Source: Adineta vaga (lineage: Eukaryota > Animalia > Rotifera). Taken from it: DNA of 64,000 nt. Under the pieces are notes generated by a model. It was given only the letters and a program-made list of their open reading frames with translations. It searched no databases and was not told the origin of the DNA. The stretch is taken from assembly GCA_021613535.1 (NCBI GenBank), contig CP075494.1, positions 15,748,001 through 15,812,000 of the forward strand. Direction: 5' to 3'. The number at the start of each line of letters is the position of its first letter. The first letter of the stretch is position 1. Below, piece after piece: positions 20,337-49,848 of the stretch. A program made the translations under genes and the position numbers.

Positions 20337-21419
20337 TTACCAAGCTGGACGAGTCAATGGATTGACATAGTCATCGAATTGATGTGGAAGAGCTGGGCGG
20401 GTCAATGGATTGATATATTCATCGTCATGTTCAGCAGGAGCTGGACGAGTCAATGGATTGATGTAGTCGTCGAATTGATGTGGAAGAGCTGGGCGGGTCA
20501 ATGGATTGATATATTCATCGTCATGTTCAGCAGGAGCTGGACGAGTCAATGGATTGATGTAGTCGTCGAATTGATGTGGAAGAGCTGGGCGGGTCAATGG
20601 ATTGATATATTCATCGTCATGTTCAGCAGGAGCTGGGCGGGTCAATGGATTGATATATTCATCGTCATGTTCAGCAGGAGCTGGACGAGTCAATGGATTG
20701 ATGTAGTCGTCGAATTGATGTGGAAGAGCTGGACGAGTCAATGGATTGATATATTCATCGTCATGTTCAGCAGGAGCTGGACGAGTCAATGGATTGATGT
20801 AGTCGTCGAATTGATGTGGAAGAGCTGGGCGGGTCAATGGATTGATATATTCATCGTCATGTTCAGCAGGAGCTGGGCGGGTCAATGGATTGATATATTC
20901 ATCGTCATGTTCAGCAGGAGCTGGACGAGTCAATGGATTGATGTAGTCGTCGAATTGATGTGGAAGAGCTGGGCGGGTCAATGGATTGATATATTCATCG
21001 TCATGTTCAGCAGGAGCTGGACGAGTCAATGGATTGATGTAGTCGTCGAATTGATGTGGAAGAGCTGGGCGGGTCAATGGATTGATATATTCATCGTCAT
21101 GTTCAGCAGGAGCTGGACGAGTCAATGGATTGATGTAGTCGTCGAATTGATGTGGAAGAGCTGGACGAGTCAATGGATTGATATATTCATCGTCATGTTC
21201 AGCAGGAGCTGGACGAGTCAATGGATTGATGTAGTCGTCGAATTGATGTGGAAGAGCTGGGCGGGTCAATGGATTGATATATTCATCGTCATGTTCAGCA
21301 GGAGCTGGACGGGTCAATGGATTGACGTAGTCTTCGAATTGGTGTGGAAGAGCTGGTCGAGTTAATGGATTGCCCAAAGCATAACCAACGACAAGAAGAA
21401 GTATAATCTTGGCTTTCAT
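20337..21419 (-). CDS. Secreted tandem-repeat protein / putative multi-copy peptide precursor (signal peptide + 21 x 16-aa units + NPLTRPAW)
   Basis: Intronless ORF; MKAKIILLLVVGYALG signal peptide; units NPLTRPALPHQFDDYI (10x) and NPLTRPAPAEHDDEYI (11x); TATATAAAA on the minus strand ~70 nt upstream. Confidence 0.85.
   Translation of the reverse strand: MKAKIILLLVVGYALGNPLTRPALPHQFEDYVNPLTRPAPAEHDDEYINPLTRPALPHQFDDYINPLTRPAPAEHDDEYINPLTRPALPHQFDDYINPLTRPAPAEHDDEYINPLTRPALPHQFDDYINPLTRPAPAEHDDEYINPLTRPALPHQFDDYINPLTRPAPAEHDDEYINPLTRPAPAEHDDEYINPLTRPALPHQFDDYINPLTRPAPAEHDDEYINPLTRPALPHQFDDYINPLTRPAPAEHDDEYINPLTRPAPAEHDDEYINPLTRPALPHQFDDYINPLTRPAPAEHDDEYINPLTRPALPHQFDDYINPLTRPAPAEHDDEYINPLTRPALPHQFDDYVNPLTRPAW
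20340..21371. repeat. 48-bp coding tandem repeat with two alternating unit types
   Basis: Directly visible; GC-richer than the flanks. Confidence 0.97.
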
Positions 21420-37014: not shown

Positions 37015-37759
37015 TGTCATAATGTCATTACACCGGGTATCCAGAACTGAACGTCTAAATACCCAACAGGGTAACCAAATACATACGGCCAGACAACCTC
37101 GTTACCCGATAACCAAACAATATCCTTCAGAACCTGAGGAATTTGAGTGAATTTGGTCGAATGATCTCGTTACCCGATAAGCAAACAATATCCTTCAGAA
37201 CCTGAGGAATTTGAGTGAATTTGGTCGAATGATCGTGTTACCCGATAACCAAACAATATCCTTGAGGGTGTGGGTGTGGGTGTGGGTGTGGGTCAGTAGG
37301 GAAAGCACAAAGTGAGGGTGTAGCGAAGGCCCGGTCAGTAGGCAATGCACAAAGTGAGGGGTAGCGAAGGCCCGGTCAGTAGGCAAAGCACAAAGGGAGG
37401 GTGTAGCGAAAACCTGTAATTGTTTAGAGAAGATGCTGTTCCATCTTCAGAACCCAGCTCGCCATGCAGCGATTAAGATCTCTTCATTTTCACACATACC
37501 TTGCTGGTCAAACGCAACGGCAAATATTCGTACAATAGATCTTTAGTATTTCGATAGCGAGAACTACTCTCCGCATCAGTATTGTTAAGCATCGACTATA
37601 ACCCAATTCATCCTAATTCCTCAACTTCTGAAAGATACATGTATCCATCTGAATCTCGTTACCCGTTGGGTAATGACCAAATTCACTCAAATTCCTCAGG
37701 TTTCAGAAGATACACTGCTCTATTTTAAGAAGGATACCCGGCGTAATGGTATTATGACA
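37015..37759. mobile_element. Non-autonomous TIR element (MITE-like) with internal tandem repeats
   Basis: 28-bp TIRs 37015-37042 / 37732-37759 (25/28 match, TGT...ACA ends); ~68-bp direct repeats at ~37098-37262 whose core reappears inverted at ~37675-37700; no clear TSD. Confidence 0.7.
37263..37292 (+). repeat. Interstitial telomere-like tract TGAGGG(TGTGGG)4
   Basis: Directly visible; TGTGGG and TGAGGG are the reported bdelloid telomeric repeats. Confidence 0.7.
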
Positions 37760-42393: not shown

Positions 42394-44191
42394 CGATTTT
42401 AATATCATGTTACATCTATCAAAATCTATACGATGTTGTTCGTTCTGCGGTCGGTCGCCGGCGTCCCTACGATTCGCCACTCTCGGCTGCTCAAGTGAGG
42501 AAATCGCATGTATGACTGCATACAATTGTAAACAATTTCCTCTTTAACTACGCATCGACTATTTAAAGACAAGTAACATGTAAGTAACAGCTTATCGTAT
42601 TCCAGTAATGCGCGTTGAGAAAGGATAAGTCCGCATCCGCATCAGTTTCCAACACTATTTAGTCGCACTCAAATATTTCCACCTTCGACCGTAAACATAA
42701 CGAACAGTAAGATCGAACACAGAAGCGCGTAACTAGCTCGTACTGATGGGTAAAGCAATATTTTCTTATCCTACTCTTGATTTTTATTGTTTACGATCGT
42801 TTTGTAGAAAATGCTCTTTTATGACTTTTGACTCTCGACGCTAACACACACACATACATACAAACTATTTTTTATCATATGACTCTCTCTTCAGTCGAGG
42901 GAAAAAAAAATTGAATTACGATCAAATTATATTTGATACTAATAAGTATTGGATATAGATAAACGCAGTGAAAAGAAATGATGATTAGAACTGATTAAAT
43001 ATTGAATATTCTATAGTCAAAATCAAGATAGCAACATCCGATTTTTCAGCACCACAGTTGACACTATTATCGAATAGATCCGTTGTTTTGGAACATTATA
43101 ATTAGATTATAATTCATTAAATCGGATTCTAATCAAAAATAAATTCGGTTTTGGTGTACAAAAGTACGTAAGATATCCTAGGTCAGAATTCGAATATTTC
43201 TAGAATGGATTCGAGTCGTTAATAGTTTCAACTCAACTGACTAAGATTCTACTAATCACTTTTGAGATAGACTCTTTTCATACCCACCCACAGTAGTAGA
43301 TGCGCCGTCAAAAACGCTATAATTTACATAAAATCACTTCTTTCATTTTCCCTGCTTTTTGTTTTAAAAAGGAGAAAAATTCAGCCAATGACAAAAAATT
43401 GTTTAGCGATTTCAAAAGCTTTTCTTTCCAAAAACATTTCTAGGTGATAAAAACATTGGATTATAACAAGCAGCACTCATCCTTTGGACTAGCTGACCAT
43501 TTTCTGAAAGAATTATAACAGTTCCCAGAATATTTAGATACTTCGAATAACAAGAGGCCCGACGCAAACCTTGATAGACCTTTTTACTTTGTTTTACATC
43601 GTTGAATGAGTGAACATTAAATGCTTTTCATTGAACATTAAAATTGTTTTCTATGCAAATAAATGTTTCACTTATTCAAGATGATTTATCTCATAATACG
43701 TCAATCGTATTGGTTAATCCAGTTTTATCGTTAATTCATTTTTTCTGTCTGTTTGGGATCTTAGAGTTTATTTCCTGTTATTTATTTCGAATGTAATTAA
43801 CCAAAATGAACAGGAGTGAAAAAGAAGAAATGGCTAAAAGTAGATACATGTATACAGATAGGAAAGACAAAGCGATAGACGAGATGATATCATCTTTACA
43901 AAGACTAACCTTTAGAGAAAAAGAGACGGTAAGAAAAATGTAAGACATATTCCGTCACAGTCAAACTGAATGAACATGACTCGTGTGTCTAATGAATGAT
44001 TGATTACATCATCGTTCCATTTCAATTTTTTTCTCAATTATTTTCGGTCTTCAAGTGTGTATTTATTGTTATCTTTTCCACAGACAAATTCATAAAATAA
44101 CCCATTCAGTACTAAATAAGTTTTGTTTCATTTGTGTTTTTTAATAAAAACATTCTTTCATATCTATAGTCTATATCATTTATTTATTATC

Positions 44192-45244
44192 ATGTTTGCA
44201 TGGAGACGATTATTACTTCTCATCATTAGCTGCATCGTTTCATTGATTTATGCTCGTCCATTGCAGAATAATCGAACATTTGGTCCATTTAATCGTTCTC
44301 AATTTTCTCAGATCAATGATTTTGACATACAAGAAATCGATATTGGAAATTTACCTGAGATTTTACCCAATATTACACGAATTATTGAACATAATTTAGA
44401 ATTAATTGAATTACCAATTGGTACTGTTCTTCACAAATCTATGCAAGTTCCATCAACTGGTCTTCTAAATCAAACTGATGTTCAAAATATTTATGCGGCA
44501 AAAAATTCTTGGTTATCAAATTTAAGTGGAGCTCAACAATATGTTAATTGGGGATATGGAAATATAATTCATTTTGAAGTAATTAAAAAATTGAAATTAT
44601 TCGATATAACAAGTCATTCCAATTGGCAGTTTATTTGGTCTAAAATGAATGAACAATTAGTAACACTTCATAAACAAAAACTTTCTTTAAATACAACGAT
44701 TAAAGCACAAAAATATCTTCAACAAGAAATCAATCAATTGATATTTCAACAAAAAATTCTTCAATTAACTATAGGATATGAAATAATTTGGAAAGAACAA
44801 ATACAATTACTTCTTTATTATGGTGATATTATTACAAATGATTATTCTTATCATCCAGTAGATGAAATTAAAAAACGTTCTTGTCATCCGGATGATTGGT
44901 TTAGTATTAATAAACGACCAACGATATTAAAATCGAAAACAACAACATTTGGTGGAAGAAAACAGGATTTAAATCGAGTGAGTTTTACAACAGCATTAGA
45001 TAATATCATGGCAGATATAATTACACAATTTGTAAATGTTGATGGTTATTATAGTAGTGAATTTCCAAGTTTATTTCATAAAAATGGTTTGATGACTCCA
45101 GAAATTGCTATTCATGTTCCTCGAGATTCATTAAAAATTATTGAGAAAAAATGTCGAAAACAATTTTATCCATGTGGTTCACAATGTTATCGACGAAATG
45201 AATATGAATGTTATCCTGGTGGAATACTTTATTCTATTTATTAA
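44192..45244 (+). CDS. Secreted protein: putative ADP-ribosyltransferase/RES-like fold + C-terminal fungal-type Cys carbohydrate-binding (CBM52/Carb_bind-like) motif
   Basis: Signal peptide MFAWRRLLLLIISCIVSLIYA; LPIGTVLHKS, WLSNLSGAQQY, IHFEVIKKLKLFDI, VDGYY, FH....PEIAI; tail CGSQCYRRNEYECYPGGIL; intronless. Confidence 0.6.
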   Translation: MFAWRRLLLLIISCIVSLIYARPLQNNRTFGPFNRSQFSQINDFDIQEIDIGNLPEILPNITRIIEHNLELIELPIGTVLHKSMQVPSTGLLNQTDVQNIYAAKNSWLSNLSGAQQYVNWGYGNIIHFEVIKKLKLFDITSHSNWQFIWSKMNEQLVTLHKQKLSLNTTIKAQKYLQQEINQLIFQQKILQLTIGYEIIWKEQIQLLLYYGDIITNDYSYHPVDEIKKRSCHPDDWFSINKRPTILKSKTTTFGGRKQDLNRVSFTTALDNIMADIITQFVNVDGYYSSEFPSLFHKNGLMTPEIAIHVPRDSLKIIEKKCRKQFYPCGSQCYRRNEYECYPGGILYSIY

Positions 45245-45679: not shown

Positions 45680-47851
45680 ATGAATGTTATGTCCGATAAT
45701 ATCTATCATGAACCGTTGCCAAAAGTAAAAGATTGGATAACAAATAAAATAAATAATCCAAAGAAACAAATGAAAAATTATTTTCTTTCATTTTTTCCAT
45801 TTTTAACTTGGATTTATCGATATAATTTCGTATGGTTTACAAATGATATTATTGCTGGTCTTACAATTGGTGCTATTGTTATACCTCAAGGTATGGCTTA
45901 TGCTGGATTAGCTAAATTAGCACCACAATTCGGTCTATATAGTTCATTTGTTGGTGTTATGATCTATTGGCTTTTTGGGACAAGTAAAGTAATATTTTGA
46001 TATATAGAAATACTAAATGAACGTTCCTTTGAATAGGATATTACTATTGGACCTGTAGCTGTTATGTCAATATTAACAGGAAGTATTATCGATGATATTA
46101 ATAAAACTCATCCTGAATATCAATTACATGTAATTGCCTCTGCACTTGCTCTTCTTGTTGGATGTATTGTTTGTGCATTTGGAATATTTCGTCTTGGTTT
46201 TATAGTTAATTTTATTCCATTACCAGCCTTATCAGCATTTACAACAGGATCAGCATTGAATATTGCTATGGGACAAATTCCTACAATGATGGGAAATAAT
46301 AAATCATTCAGTACACAACAATCAACTTTTCTTATTTTTATTAATTTTTGGAAAAATATTAAATATTGTGATTTAAATGCTGCTCTTGGTTTATCAGCAT
46401 TAGTTCTGGTTTATTCTATTCGATTTTTTTGTACTTATGCTATTCGACGTTATCCACGTTATGAAAAAATCTTTTTCTTTATTAATACACTTCGTTCAGT
46501 ATTTGTTATCTTAATTTATTTATTTTGTTCATGGTTAATTAATCGAAATAATCCATCACAACCACGAACATCACTTCTTGGTACAATTCCACGTGGTTTT
46601 CAAAATATGGCTGTACCATATTTAGATCAAAAACTATTTTTACAATTAATAAAATATTTACCATCAGCTGCTATTGTTCTTGTTATTGAACATATTGCTA
46701 TTGCAAAATCTTTTGGTCGAATTAATAATTATGTTATAAATCCAAATCAAGAATTGATTGCAATTGGTATGACAAATATCTTTGGTTCATTTTTTGGTGC
46801 TTATCCAGCAACTGGTTCATTTTCTCGAACAGCAATTAAATCTAAAGCAGGTGTTCGAACACCATTAGGTGATGTTATGACTGGTATTATGATTATTTTA
46901 GCTATTTATGTTTTAACACCAGTTTTTTTCTGGATTTCAAAAGCAAGTCTTTCTGCTGTTATTGTTCATGCTGTTGGTGATTTAATTGTTGGACCAAATA
47001 CTTTAAAAAGATTTTGGCAAATTAATCCATTTGAATTTTTTATCTTTTGTATTAGTGTTATTGTAACGATATTTTCAAGTATTGAATATGGAATTTATGT
47101 TGGGATTTTGATGTCATTGATTCTTTTACTTTATCGTATTGCTAAACCACAAGGACAATTCCTTGGTCAAATTCAATTAATTTCAGAGAATTCAATGAAA
47201 CGAAATGTGTTTATTCCAGTGAATCATTCGGATGGAACAAATCCAATAATAAATCCAGTTTTATCGAATGATGGAATTATTATTTTTCGAATTCATGATG
47301 ACTTTCTTTATCCAAATGCTGCAAATTATATGGAACAATTAGTAAAACAAGTTTTTAAGAAAACTAAAAGTGGAAAATCTTCTCATTATAATAGTCTGAG
47401 TGAACAACCTTGGAATTTAATAACAAGTCGTCATCCAGAAAAAGAATATCAACTAAATGATACTCGTCCTCAATTACATGCAATTATTCTTGATTTTACT
47501 GGTGTTTCACATATTGATGTAACTGCTTTACAAAATCTTGTTGATATTCGTCGACAGTTAGATAATTATGCAAATTCAAAAGTCAATTGGCATTTTGTTG
47601 GTTTATCAAATCCATGGATTAAACGTGCACTTCTTTCACGTGGTTTTGGTTCGTCAGATTCGACTAAAACAAATATTTCAATGGTAAATATACAAAGAGA
47701 AAATGATTTAACAAGTAATCCTGTTCCAGTTCCAATCCTTGATATAGATCGTCCATTATTTCATATTGATATCGAGGAAGCTTATCGAGCAGCTATTACT
47801 AGTCTTTCAACACATCAAAATAGTGACAATTCAGTTATGACAGTATTTTAA
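45680..47851 (+). CDS. SulP/SLC26 sulfate permease with STAS domain, fungal SUL1/SUL2-type
   Basis: DIIAGLTIGAIVIPQGMAYA, FGTSK/DITIGPVAVMS, EHIAIAKSFGRINNY, TAIKSKAGVRTPL, AIILDFTGVSHIDVT, WHFVGLSNPWIKRAL, RPLFHIDI; single 48-nt intron 45989-46036. Confidence 0.93.
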
Positions 47852-49308: not shown

Positions 49309-49848
49309 CTAAGCAGCTTTCTTCTTCGGTGATTCGAATGCTTTGGACGCGTTCTTAGCAAGAACCTGAAGAATAATCAAAGCAAATAACAGCGCTGCAA
49401 TAATGGCATGACTGTAAGCAAGCTGTTGCAAATAGCCTTCTCTTGCAATTCTATCGGCCTTAGTGGTTTTGAACAACGATTCACGATAGACATTGATCCG
49501 AAAGATGAAAATACCCATCATGGCTAAGACAAGTGGTGCACTGATCATGTCGTAGATGCTGCGTTTAATGTTTTTGAGCATGATTAGAATGCCGATCGTA
49601 GTAGGGATCGTTGTCAGTAGCATCATGTACCACGGTTGCTCAGATACATTGCGATTGAACGCAGTACAAGTCTCGATTTGAGCCGACGTCATGGATGAAC
49701 TGACGAAAACATAGTGATCGCAGAACATGTCGATTGCAATAAGACCTAGATTTAAACATATACATACAGATATTTGCGGAATATGAAAGTGTCAGTCAGA
49801 AATCTTCCTACCTAGTGTAAACGAGAGTGTGCACAAGACAAATGTCAT
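49309..49848 (-). CDS. Shr3-like 4-TM ER membrane protein
   Basis: Exon 1 MTFVLCTLSFTL G/ joins GLIAIDMFCD; pattern SF.LG....D, D..S..L, RE..L..LA.S..II..LL....LQ; C-terminal KKAA dilysine ER-retrieval motif. Confidence 0.55.

What the first reader, a model, noticed from the sequence alone, without database searches (positions are those of the whole stretch)
44192..45244. Secreted putative ART/RES-fold enzyme fused to a fungal-type glucan-binding motif: candidate antifungal effector
Seen: an intronless ORF with a signal peptide, an early strand LPIGTVLHKS, a W-x-S...A..Y motif, a K.LKL.D strand, and late DGY and H....E(IAI) motifs, then a short CG..CY....Y.C..G.L tail. Established: ART/RES folds use an early R/H strand, a middle S/Y motif and a late acidic strand. 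The tail matches the pattern of the fungal Carb_bind/CBM52 beta-1,3-glucan-binding module, and bdelloids upregulate horizontally acquired genes against fungal pathogens. Inference: an NAD-consuming toxin targeted to fungal walls. I do not recognise this domain combination from any described animal gene.
Basis: partly seen in the sequence, partly recalled or inferred. Interest (0 to 1): 0.8.

Follow-up and report, generated by a model that had tools for sequence, protein, structure and literature searches.

The report
Rotifer's borrowed secreted NAD-cleaving enzyme
A bdelloid rotifer carries an intron-free gene, shared with giant viruses and bacteria, for a likely secreted protein that is predicted to have the fold of NAD-using ADP-ribosylating enzymes and ends in a short tail resembling half of a fungal glucan-binding module, so it may act on the walls of fungi or algae, though nothing yet shows that it does.

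Summary
The 350-codon ORF and all motifs are real. Its core (aa 66-319) belongs to an unnamed family: 120 representatives at E<=0.001, in bdelloids, giant viruses and scattered bacteria, with no Pfam, NCBIfam or PHROG match. Two confident AlphaFold models (this protein and a distant relative) both rank ADP-ribosyltransferase (ART) superfamily structures first (15 of the top 16 rows; 18 of 19 domain-covering rows), but Z is only 5-7 and Foldseek finds nothing significant in the PDB. The conserved residues are K82, W107, Y117, R262, S264, D270, DGY and E304: a K-Y-E variant closest to the diphtheria-toxin/PARP type, not RES, and K82 rather than H81 is the conserved position. The tail matches only the second half of Pfam Carb_bind (CBM52), below the cut-off, and occurs only in the bdelloid-type clade. 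There is no translocation domain and no expression evidence, so 'antifungal toxin' is unproven; a surface-acting NAD+-cleaving enzyme is the likelier reading. In one sequenced sample the second allele carries two stops and a frameshift. Verdict: new variant of a known kind.

The parts
44192..45244 (+). Intronless ORF, 350 aa (P0001)
   Evidence: GC3 0.123, within the range of most neighbouring ORFs
44192..44254 (+). Likely signal peptide (aa 1-21)
   Evidence: hydropathy, helix 2-20, same feature in P0002-P0006; cleavage site inferred
44387..45148 (+). Family core, predicted ART-superfamily fold (aa 66-319)
   Evidence: profile search span; model pLDDT 91.6; fold searches
44435..44437 (+). K82, likely first catalytic position (strand 79-84)
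   Evidence: K in 66 of 78, R in 7; correspondence to the His/Arg position is inferred from motif order
44510..44542 (+). W107-x6-A114-x2-Y117: second strand and following helix, Y117 the likely second triad residue
   Evidence: W 74, A 69, Y 76 of 78; DSSP E106-109, H111-119
44609..45037 (+). Large helical insert (aa 140-282) with invariant R262, S264, D270, likely acceptor pocket
   Evidence: DSSP; R 77, S 74, D 78 of 78; role inferred
45041..45049 (+). DGY strand (284-286)
   Evidence: D 72, G 77, Y 76 of 78
45101..45103 (+). E304, likely catalytic glutamate (strand 304-307)
   Evidence: E in 76 of 78; role inferred from the ART superfamily (PMC8120803)
45152..45241 (+). Four-cysteine tail resembling the second half of Carb_bind/CBM52
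   Evidence: Pfam PF10645 16.7 bits, E 0.009, cut-off 25, profile positions 28-46 of 49; 9 of 139 stored proteins carry the pattern
44943..44965 (+). 23 bases missing in the other allele of one sequenced sample (frameshift), which also shows stops at codons 145 and 236
   Evidence: contigs of X2, X3, X5, one sample

Best explanation
This is a likely horizontally acquired, likely secreted enzyme predicted to have the ADP-ribosyltransferase fold, which would cleave NAD+ outside the cell while its half-CBM52-like tail likely holds it on the glucan walls of fungi, oomycetes or algae. Shown: the ORF, the family, its spread, the conserved residues, the tail's restriction to the bdelloid-type clade. 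Predicted: the fold (about 0.85). Inferred: NAD+ binds in the cleft between the strand carrying K82 and the W107/Y117 element, E304 stabilises the oxocarbenium state as nicotinamide leaves (about 0.7 that it is an active NAD+ enzyme), and the invariant R262/S264/D270 of the helical insert position a small, universally available acceptor (water, phosphate or a nucleotide) rather than one host protein, since they are kept from giant viruses to bacteria to rotifers. Inferred, weaker: the tail derives from CBM52 (about 0.6) and binds beta-1,3-glucan (about 0.4). With no translocation domain the enzyme would work at the surface or on contents leaking from damaged cells, in the gut or on the body wall, serving defence or digestion.
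For: Fold: (15 of the top 16 rows are ART-superfamily chains: diphtheria toxin A Z 5.3, rmsd 5.1, 133 aligned; MbcT 5.1; AcrIF11 4.9; ParT, PARPs, Rhs toxins) and on an independent relative (DT Z 7.2, rmsd 4.3, 124 aligned; 18 of the 19 rows with 100 or more aligned residues are ART-superfamily). Strand-helix order fits. Conserved K-Y-E and R/S/D. Context fits an NAD/ADP-ribose enzyme and an exported effector: Nudix-box-like RExxEE upstream in three giant-virus-type relatives, EEP, eCIS_core, FG-GAP, PATR and PGRS fusions, hydrophobic leaders in bacterial members. Horizontal origin: named animal hits are only bdelloids; relatives in giant viruses and bacteria; 23-row group with bacteria and giant-virus-like rows at 100/100; neighbours of non-animal type. 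Tail: Carb_bind best Pfam match in 4 of 8 tails and top Atlas structure row. Precedent for secreted, glycosylated ART-fold NADases: PMC7955114 (abstract).
Against: No Foldseek match at E<=0.001 in the PDB for either model; best Z 5.4 and 7.3 are under the tool's caution line of 8; no sequence-level link to any ART family. Lys at the first position fits none of the triads in PMC8120803's table. Residue-level superposition was not available, so the triad is inferred. The tail is below the Pfam cut-off, covers only about 20 of 49 positions, missed Carb_bind in 4 of 8 tails, and a galaxin-repeat cluster scores TM 0.60 against 0.63 (both under the Atlas's bar). The Nudix-like motif has no Pfam support. 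One allele is broken in the one sample examined, so the gene tolerates loss of a copy.
Confidence: 0.4

Rival explanations
1. The ART-fold core is a secreted NAD+-using enzyme, but the tail is a generic disulfide-knotted cap (galaxin-like or decayed CBM52) that does not bind glucan; the enzyme works untargeted in gut or mucus, for example salvaging NAD+ from lysed food.
For: Tail under cut-off and half-length; galaxin cluster nearly ties; the closest tail-less relatives P0009/P0016 keep the core; the characterised fungal enzyme has three whole CBM52 copies (PMC9609564).
Against: Carb_bind is the best Pfam family in 4 of 8 tails and was predicted beforehand; the four-Cys pattern is kept in 9 sequences at 55-69% overall identity.
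Confidence: 0.2
2. It is a transferase for a small molecule or nucleic acid (Arr- or scabin-like): it ADP-ribosylates and inactivates a microbial toxin or antibiotic, or modifies nucleic acid.
For: Invariant R262/S264/D270 in a large insert suggest a defined acceptor site; Arr and guanine-specific ARTs are precedents (PMC8120803); 5zj4 appears weakly.
Against: Arr is not among the listed fold matches; no acceptor evidence; extracellular NAD+ supply would limit transfer (general knowledge).
Confidence: 0.15
3. One reading: a true antifungal toxin that docks on the fungal wall, enters the hypha and depletes NAD+ or ADP-ribosylates a fungal protein.
For: Nearest folds are toxins; toxin-type fusion with eCIS_core in P0087; bdelloids upregulate foreign genes, including glucanases, against a fungus (PMC11258130).
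Against: No translocation or pore-forming domain in 350 aa; no shared immunity-like gene seen by eye beside 13 bacterial loci; one allele dead in one sample.
Confidence: 0.13
4. The resemblance to ARTs is a shared split beta-sheet only; the family does other chemistry or none, centred on the R262/S264/D270 insert.
For: Z under 8, rmsd 4-5 A, no significant Foldseek or profile match; non-canonical Lys.
Against: Many mutually unrelated ART families head both lists; aromatic-basic, W/Y and late Glu motifs come in ART order and are near-invariant.
Confidence: 0.12

Closest known systems
Diphtheria-toxin/PARP-type (H-Y-E) ART domains, including DT-A, SAIP, AcrIF11
   Same: Best fold matches (Z 5.3-7.3); Tyr after the second strand and a late Glu
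   Different: Lys, not His, at the first position; about 140-residue helical insert with invariant R/S/D; no translocation or receptor domain; 5-14% identity
RES-domain enzymes (MbcT, ParT, NatT, Xre-RES)
   Same: Next-best fold matches (Z 4-6); 'L-x-L-x-D' and 'DG-aromatic' strands (recalled as RES-like)
   Different: No PF08808 hit; profile score 13.0 within shuffled 7.7-13.3; Y117 and E304 do not fit ParT's R-Y-N triad or its helix Glu; secreted, no antitoxin neighbour
Fungal surface NADases (TNT domain; PMC7955114)
   Same: Secreted, glycosylated NAD+-cleaving enzymes acting outside the cell; six N-glycosylation sequons here
   Different: Only weak fold match (Z 2.3; E 3); different motifs
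CBM52 / Pfam Carb_bind (S. pombe Eng1)
   Same: CG-x2-CY-x5-6-C-x2-G-x-L pattern, E 0.004-0.02 in 4 of 8 tails
   Different: One half-module against three whole copies in Eng1; under the cut-off; attached to an ART-like core, not a glucanase
Pierisin/MTX-type ART plus lectin fusions
   Same: ART domain with a sugar-binding module; animal reuse of a borrowed microbial ART (PMC3417536; PMC9503650)
   Different: Those are R-S-E enzymes with ricin-type lectins; this is K-Y-E with a CBM52-like tail
Uncharacterised giant-virus proteins (Catovirus CTV1 A0A1V0S963, Klosneuvirus KNV1 A0A1V0SL41, ChoanoV1, TetV-1, CeV-01B)
   Same: Same fold family, Foldseek E 8e-20 to 9e-6
   Different: No function assigned; other N-terminal domains; no tail seen in the giant-virus-type sequences held here

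Membership tests
ART superfamily | Six-strand split beta-sheet core with NAD+ cleft | tested here: met
   Both models rank ART-superfamily chains first (15 of top 16; 18 of 19 domain-covering rows); moderate only, Z under 8 and no significant Foldseek hit
ART superfamily | Conserved acidic residue on the late strand | tested here: met
   E304 in 76 of 78, on strand 304-307; spatial equivalence inferred
ART superfamily | NAD+ binding and cleavage | not testable with these tools
   needs an assay
H-Y-E (DT/PARP) clade | His at the first triad position | tested here: not met
   column 82: K 66, R 7, H 1 of 78; column 81 is the aromatic position
H-Y-E (DT/PARP) clade | Tyr second and Glu third | tested here: met
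   Y117 76 of 78, E304 76 of 78; mapping inferred from motif order
R-S-E (cholera-toxin) clade | Arg, S-T-S motif, E-x-E | tested here: not met
   Arg in 7 of 78; second strand reads W-[FYL]-[SGT]; no conserved acidic residue two before E304
RES domain (PF08808) | Profile match | tested here: not met
   no Pfam hit in 68 relatives or in P0001; hhalign score 13.0 against 7.7-13.3 for 30 shuffles
ART-PolyVal (PF18760) | Profile match | tested here: inconclusive
   no Pfam hit; hhalign against only two members gave E 0.37
CBM52 / Carb_bind (PF10645) | Score over the curated cut-off (25 bits) | tested here: not met
   16.7 bits for the tail alone, 15.6-17.8 in three relatives, none in four
CBM52 / Carb_bind (PF10645) | Whole 49-position module | tested here: not met
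   only positions 27-48 matched
CBM52 / Carb_bind (PF10645) | Binds beta-1,3-glucan | not testable with these tools
   needs a pull-down
A-B type toxin | Translocation domain | tested here: not met
   350 aa accounted for by leader, core and 30-aa tail; the only strongly hydrophobic stretch is the leader

The most novel reading that the evidence does not exclude
An unrecognised K-Y-E clade of the ART superfamily, spread among giant viruses, bacteria and at least two eukaryote lines, from which bdelloids built a new antifungal immune effector by fusing a borrowed NAD+-destroying domain to a borrowed fungal wall-binding module: an animal weapon assembled from two foreign parts.
Probability: 0.2. 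Interest if true: 0.8.

Novelty: new variant of a known kind. Interest (0 to 1): 0.52.

Why it matters
It names a widespread, unannotated family (over a hundred 50%-identity clusters, many in giant viruses) as a likely ART clade with an unusual Lys in place of His/Arg, which is directly testable with a single NADase assay. If the tail does aim the enzyme at glucan walls, it is a case of an animal shuffling horizontally acquired domains into a new defence protein, bearing on how asexual bdelloids withstand fungal parasites. If not, it remains one more of the many ART-like genes of bdelloids (431 genes carry an arginine-ART GO term in one Adineta annotation).

Tried and rejected
No whole genome is held, so copy number and ohnologues were not checked. 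Pfam, NCBIfam, PHROGs and PDB-sequence searches gave nothing for the core. Phage records: one E 0.6 match, rejected. Viral contigs: 0 of 37 and 0 of 63 pattern stretches confirmed. Atlas on whole P0002: model pLDDT 0.33, uninformative. Search with the tail alone found only the query. Arr was not among the listed fold matches (not an exclusion). RNA: no RNA holder listed; one 167-nt contig of depth 2.8 in a run only guessed to be RNA; neither counts for or against expression. The infection RNA-seq tables of PMC11258130 could not be tied to this gene: identifiers carry no coordinates, Supplementary Data 1 was too large to read, one file is a scan, and term searches found nothing; likewise PMC12220480, whose file is cut. 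ART-PolyVal members were too few for a profile (3 of 201 and 1 of 401 genomes). A review recalled by id was not held. The first tree did not finish its careful search; a 36-row careful tree did but does not resolve the donor. The origin of P0009/P0016 could not be found. Earlier findings: nothing. Complex prediction was not used: no partner is claimed.

Full report
1. Observation. The ORF at 44192-45244 (+) is real: 350 codons from the first ATG after a stop. Residues 7-19 are strongly hydrophobic and are the only such stretch; there are six N-glycosylation sequons and four tail cysteines. Full-length relatives align end to end without intron-sized gaps. GC3 is 0.123, against 0.09-0.16 for six of eight other window ORFs tested (0.26 and 0.30 for the other two), so the gene is ameliorated and not a recent arrival or a contaminant; it lies on a 16.9-Mb contig.

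2. Relatives. The word-based search gave 10 proteins of 1159 candidates: the query, three named bdelloid proteins (Adineta ricciae 69% and a damaged 53% copy, Rotaria sordida 62%), four unnamed ones at 55-59% with the same leader and tail, and two more distant. A profile search of 1.84 billion representatives gave 120 at E<=0.001, 80 at 1e-10; the shared core is aa 66-319. None of 68 scanned relatives has a Pfam match on the core, nor 78 in NCBIfam or PHROGs. Foldseek against viral models gave 8 matches at E<=0.001, five named giant viruses (Catovirus E 8e-20, Klosneuvirus, ChoanoV1, Tetraselmis virus 1, CeV-01B) and three unnamed. Bacterial genomes gave 13 loci of 48 pattern stretches: a cyanobacterium, planctomycetes, a verrucomicrobium, mycobacteria and other actinomycetes, a myxobacterium. 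There the domain sits in proteins with hydrophobic leaders or with FG-GAP, PATR, pentapeptide or PGRS parts, and once behind eCIS_core; by eye no shared small partner gene follows it. In a careful tree of 36 chosen rows (103 of 139 stored proteins left out) the seven bdelloid-type rows and P0009/P0016 form one group (100/99), inside a 23-row group (100/100) with eight bacterial rows, four rows I label giant-virus-like (from a KY-x-KYK leader in one and low complexity; label recalled, not shown) and a eukaryote-like metagenome gene. Horizontal origin is well supported; the donor is unresolved.

3. Fold. The AlphaFold model from 71 sequences is confident (pLDDT 91.6, pTM 0.83; tail only 58-72): strands at 79-84, 106-109, helix 111-119, strands 124-130, 134-138, a helical insert 142-280, then strands 285-288, 304-307, 314-319. 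Foldseek found nothing at E<=0.001 in the PDB. The exhaustive aligner gave diphtheria toxin A (Z 5.3, rmsd 5.1, 133 aligned), MbcT 5.1, AcrIF11 4.9, SAIP 4.8, ParT, NatT, Xre-RES, PARP2, RhsP2, Rhs1-CT, tankyrase: 15 of the top 16 rows are ART-superfamily chains (the ART label is in the title or in PMC8120803 for most, recalled for MbcT, NatT, SAIP, RhsP2 and Rhs1-CT). To lessen the penalty of the insert I folded a distant relative with a shorter one (P0131): DT Z 7.2 (rmsd 4.3, 124 aligned), MbcT 6.1, AcrIF11 5.7; 18 of the 19 rows aligning 100 or more residues are ART-superfamily, the other 31 rows align only a short C-terminal helix pair; Foldseek again gave no significant hit. The tool warns that Z under 8 may be a common arrangement; the agreement of many unrelated ART families over the whole domain, twice, is why I put the fold at about 0.85.

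4. Active site. In 78 sequences: position 81 Y 55/F 11/H 7; K82 66 (R 7, H 1); W107 74; A114 69; Y117 76; G195 76; R262 77; S264 74; D270 78; D284 72; G285 77; Y286 76; E304 76. With Y117 and E304 this gives a K-Y-E set, nearest the H-Y-E clade; it fits neither H-Y-E, R-S-E nor ParT's R-Y-N as tabulated in PMC8120803 (passages). A profile comparison with 28 RES domains scored 13.0, inside the 7.7-13.3 range of 30 column shuffles: not RES. Three giant-virus-type relatives have a Nudix-box-like motif upstream (no Pfam support), which would suit an ADP-ribose-producing partner domain.

5. Tail. On the whole protein Carb_bind scores E 0.49. On tails alone it is the best family in 4 of 8 (E 0.004-0.02, 15.6-17.8 bits, cut-off 25), covering positions 27-48 of 49; two tails matched only other Cys-rich families and two nothing. 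The eight tails are related, so not independent. The Atlas structure search put a fungal cluster with Carb_bind first (TM 0.63, 30 residues) and a galaxin-repeat cluster second (0.60), both under its bar for naming a family. The pattern occurs in 9 of 139 stored proteins, eight of the bdelloid type and one fragment, so the fusion is specific to that clade. S. pombe Eng1 has three CBM52 copies (PMC9609564, passages); whether one half-module binds glucan is open. Glucan walls or stores also occur in oomycetes and algae (general knowledge), so binding would not by itself mean antifungal.

6. State of the gene. Contigs of runs X2, X3 and X5 (one sample) show a second version with stops at codons 145 and 236, a 23-base deletion at codons 251-258 and changes at conserved G211 and S264; 19 of 23 substitution sites change or end the protein, as expected without selection (three sites rest on depth under 5). 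The window's letters match the conserved residues at these places, and at 44741-44889 both versions are present at similar depth. The simplest reading is one working and one dead allele; phase is not proven because contigs merge alleles.

7. Mechanism. Most likely the protein is secreted, binds NAD+ in an ART cleft, uses E304 to release nicotinamide, and passes ADP-ribose to water or another small acceptor held by R262/S264/D270, while the tail keeps it on glucan-walled cells (0.4 for the whole chain). The constancy of the insert residues across viruses, bacteria and animals argues against one protein target. The absence of a translocation domain argues against a classical toxin (0.13). Fungal surface NADases are a precedent for extracellular NAD+ cleavage by a secreted ART-related fold (PMC7955114, abstract). 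Bdelloids do deploy foreign genes, glucanases among them, against a fungus (PMC11258130, abstract and one results section), but I could not tie this gene to those data; in that paper's tables 431 genes carry an arginine-ART term and six of them were down-regulated early, so an ART in a bdelloid is not in itself rare or tied to defence.

8. Novelty. Searches (listings only, except PMC3417536 passages) showed no paper on this family or fusion. PMC9503650 (abstract, passages, sections 3.7.1 and 3.9) names Alt/VIP2, PART and ecto-ART families in large eukaryotic DNA viruses and no Lys-type clade; its supplements, which I did not read, could list some members. The library lacks most subscription papers. 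Verdict: a new variant of a known kind, namely an unnamed, likely K-Y-E ART clade with a bdelloid-specific tail; works like an ART/NADase by prediction, is not a member of the RES, H-Y-E, R-S-E or CBM52 families by the tests above. Interest 0.52.

Noticed in passing
window 45680-47851 (+): Sulfate permease (SulP+STAS) with a short intron near 45988-46037; best solved relative is an 809-aa 'probable sulfate permease' at E 6e-140 against 8e-51 for the next; looks fungal in type (recalled).
   Followed up: partly
window 49309-49728 (-): SHR3_chaperone match over the Pfam cut-off (E 1e-7), a family I recall as fungal: with SulP it suggests a small island of foreign genes around the finding.
   Followed up: partly
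window 44192-45244, runs X2-X5 (one sample): Other allele looks like a decaying pseudogene: of 23 substitution sites 4 synonymous, 17 missense, 2 stops, plus a 23-base deletion; 3 of the sites rest on contigs of depth under 5; phase not proven.
   Followed up: yes
window 20337-21419 (-): Hydrophobic leader followed by about 21 near-identical 16-residue repeats of two types, like a peptide precursor; no credible Pfam match.
   Followed up: no
window 37269-37292; loose end at 44117: Four TGTGGG units in the window and similar CCCACA units in a loose contig end just upstream of the gene; recalled as the bdelloid telomere repeat.
   Followed up: no
L003 1544-2499: A eukaryote-like contig holds a family member; a 63-base GT..AG stretch (1819-1881) looks like an intron separating a hydrophobic-leader ORF from the domain, which would make a second secreted eukaryotic member (read by eye).
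   Followed up: partly
P0022 (L004), P0044, P0053; P0045: Giant-virus-type members carry an N-terminal Nudix-box-like GG..RExxEE motif without Pfam support, or an EEP domain.
   Followed up: partly
PDB 9k3a chain B 1418-1604: A cyanophage ejectosome protein region aligns with both models among the ART rows (Z 4.3-4.7); it may hold an unannotated ART-like domain.
   Followed up: no
P0009, P0013-P0020: A 316-aa, nine-member cluster from metagenomes, without leader or tail, groups with the bdelloid-type sequences (100/99) on a long branch; organism unknown.
   Followed up: partly
L009-L014: Environmental mycobacteria and other actinomycetes carry the domain at the C-terminus of secreted, partly PGRS-like proteins, one copy beside a resolvase-like and a DNA-methylase-like ORF (neighbours read by eye).
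   Followed up: no
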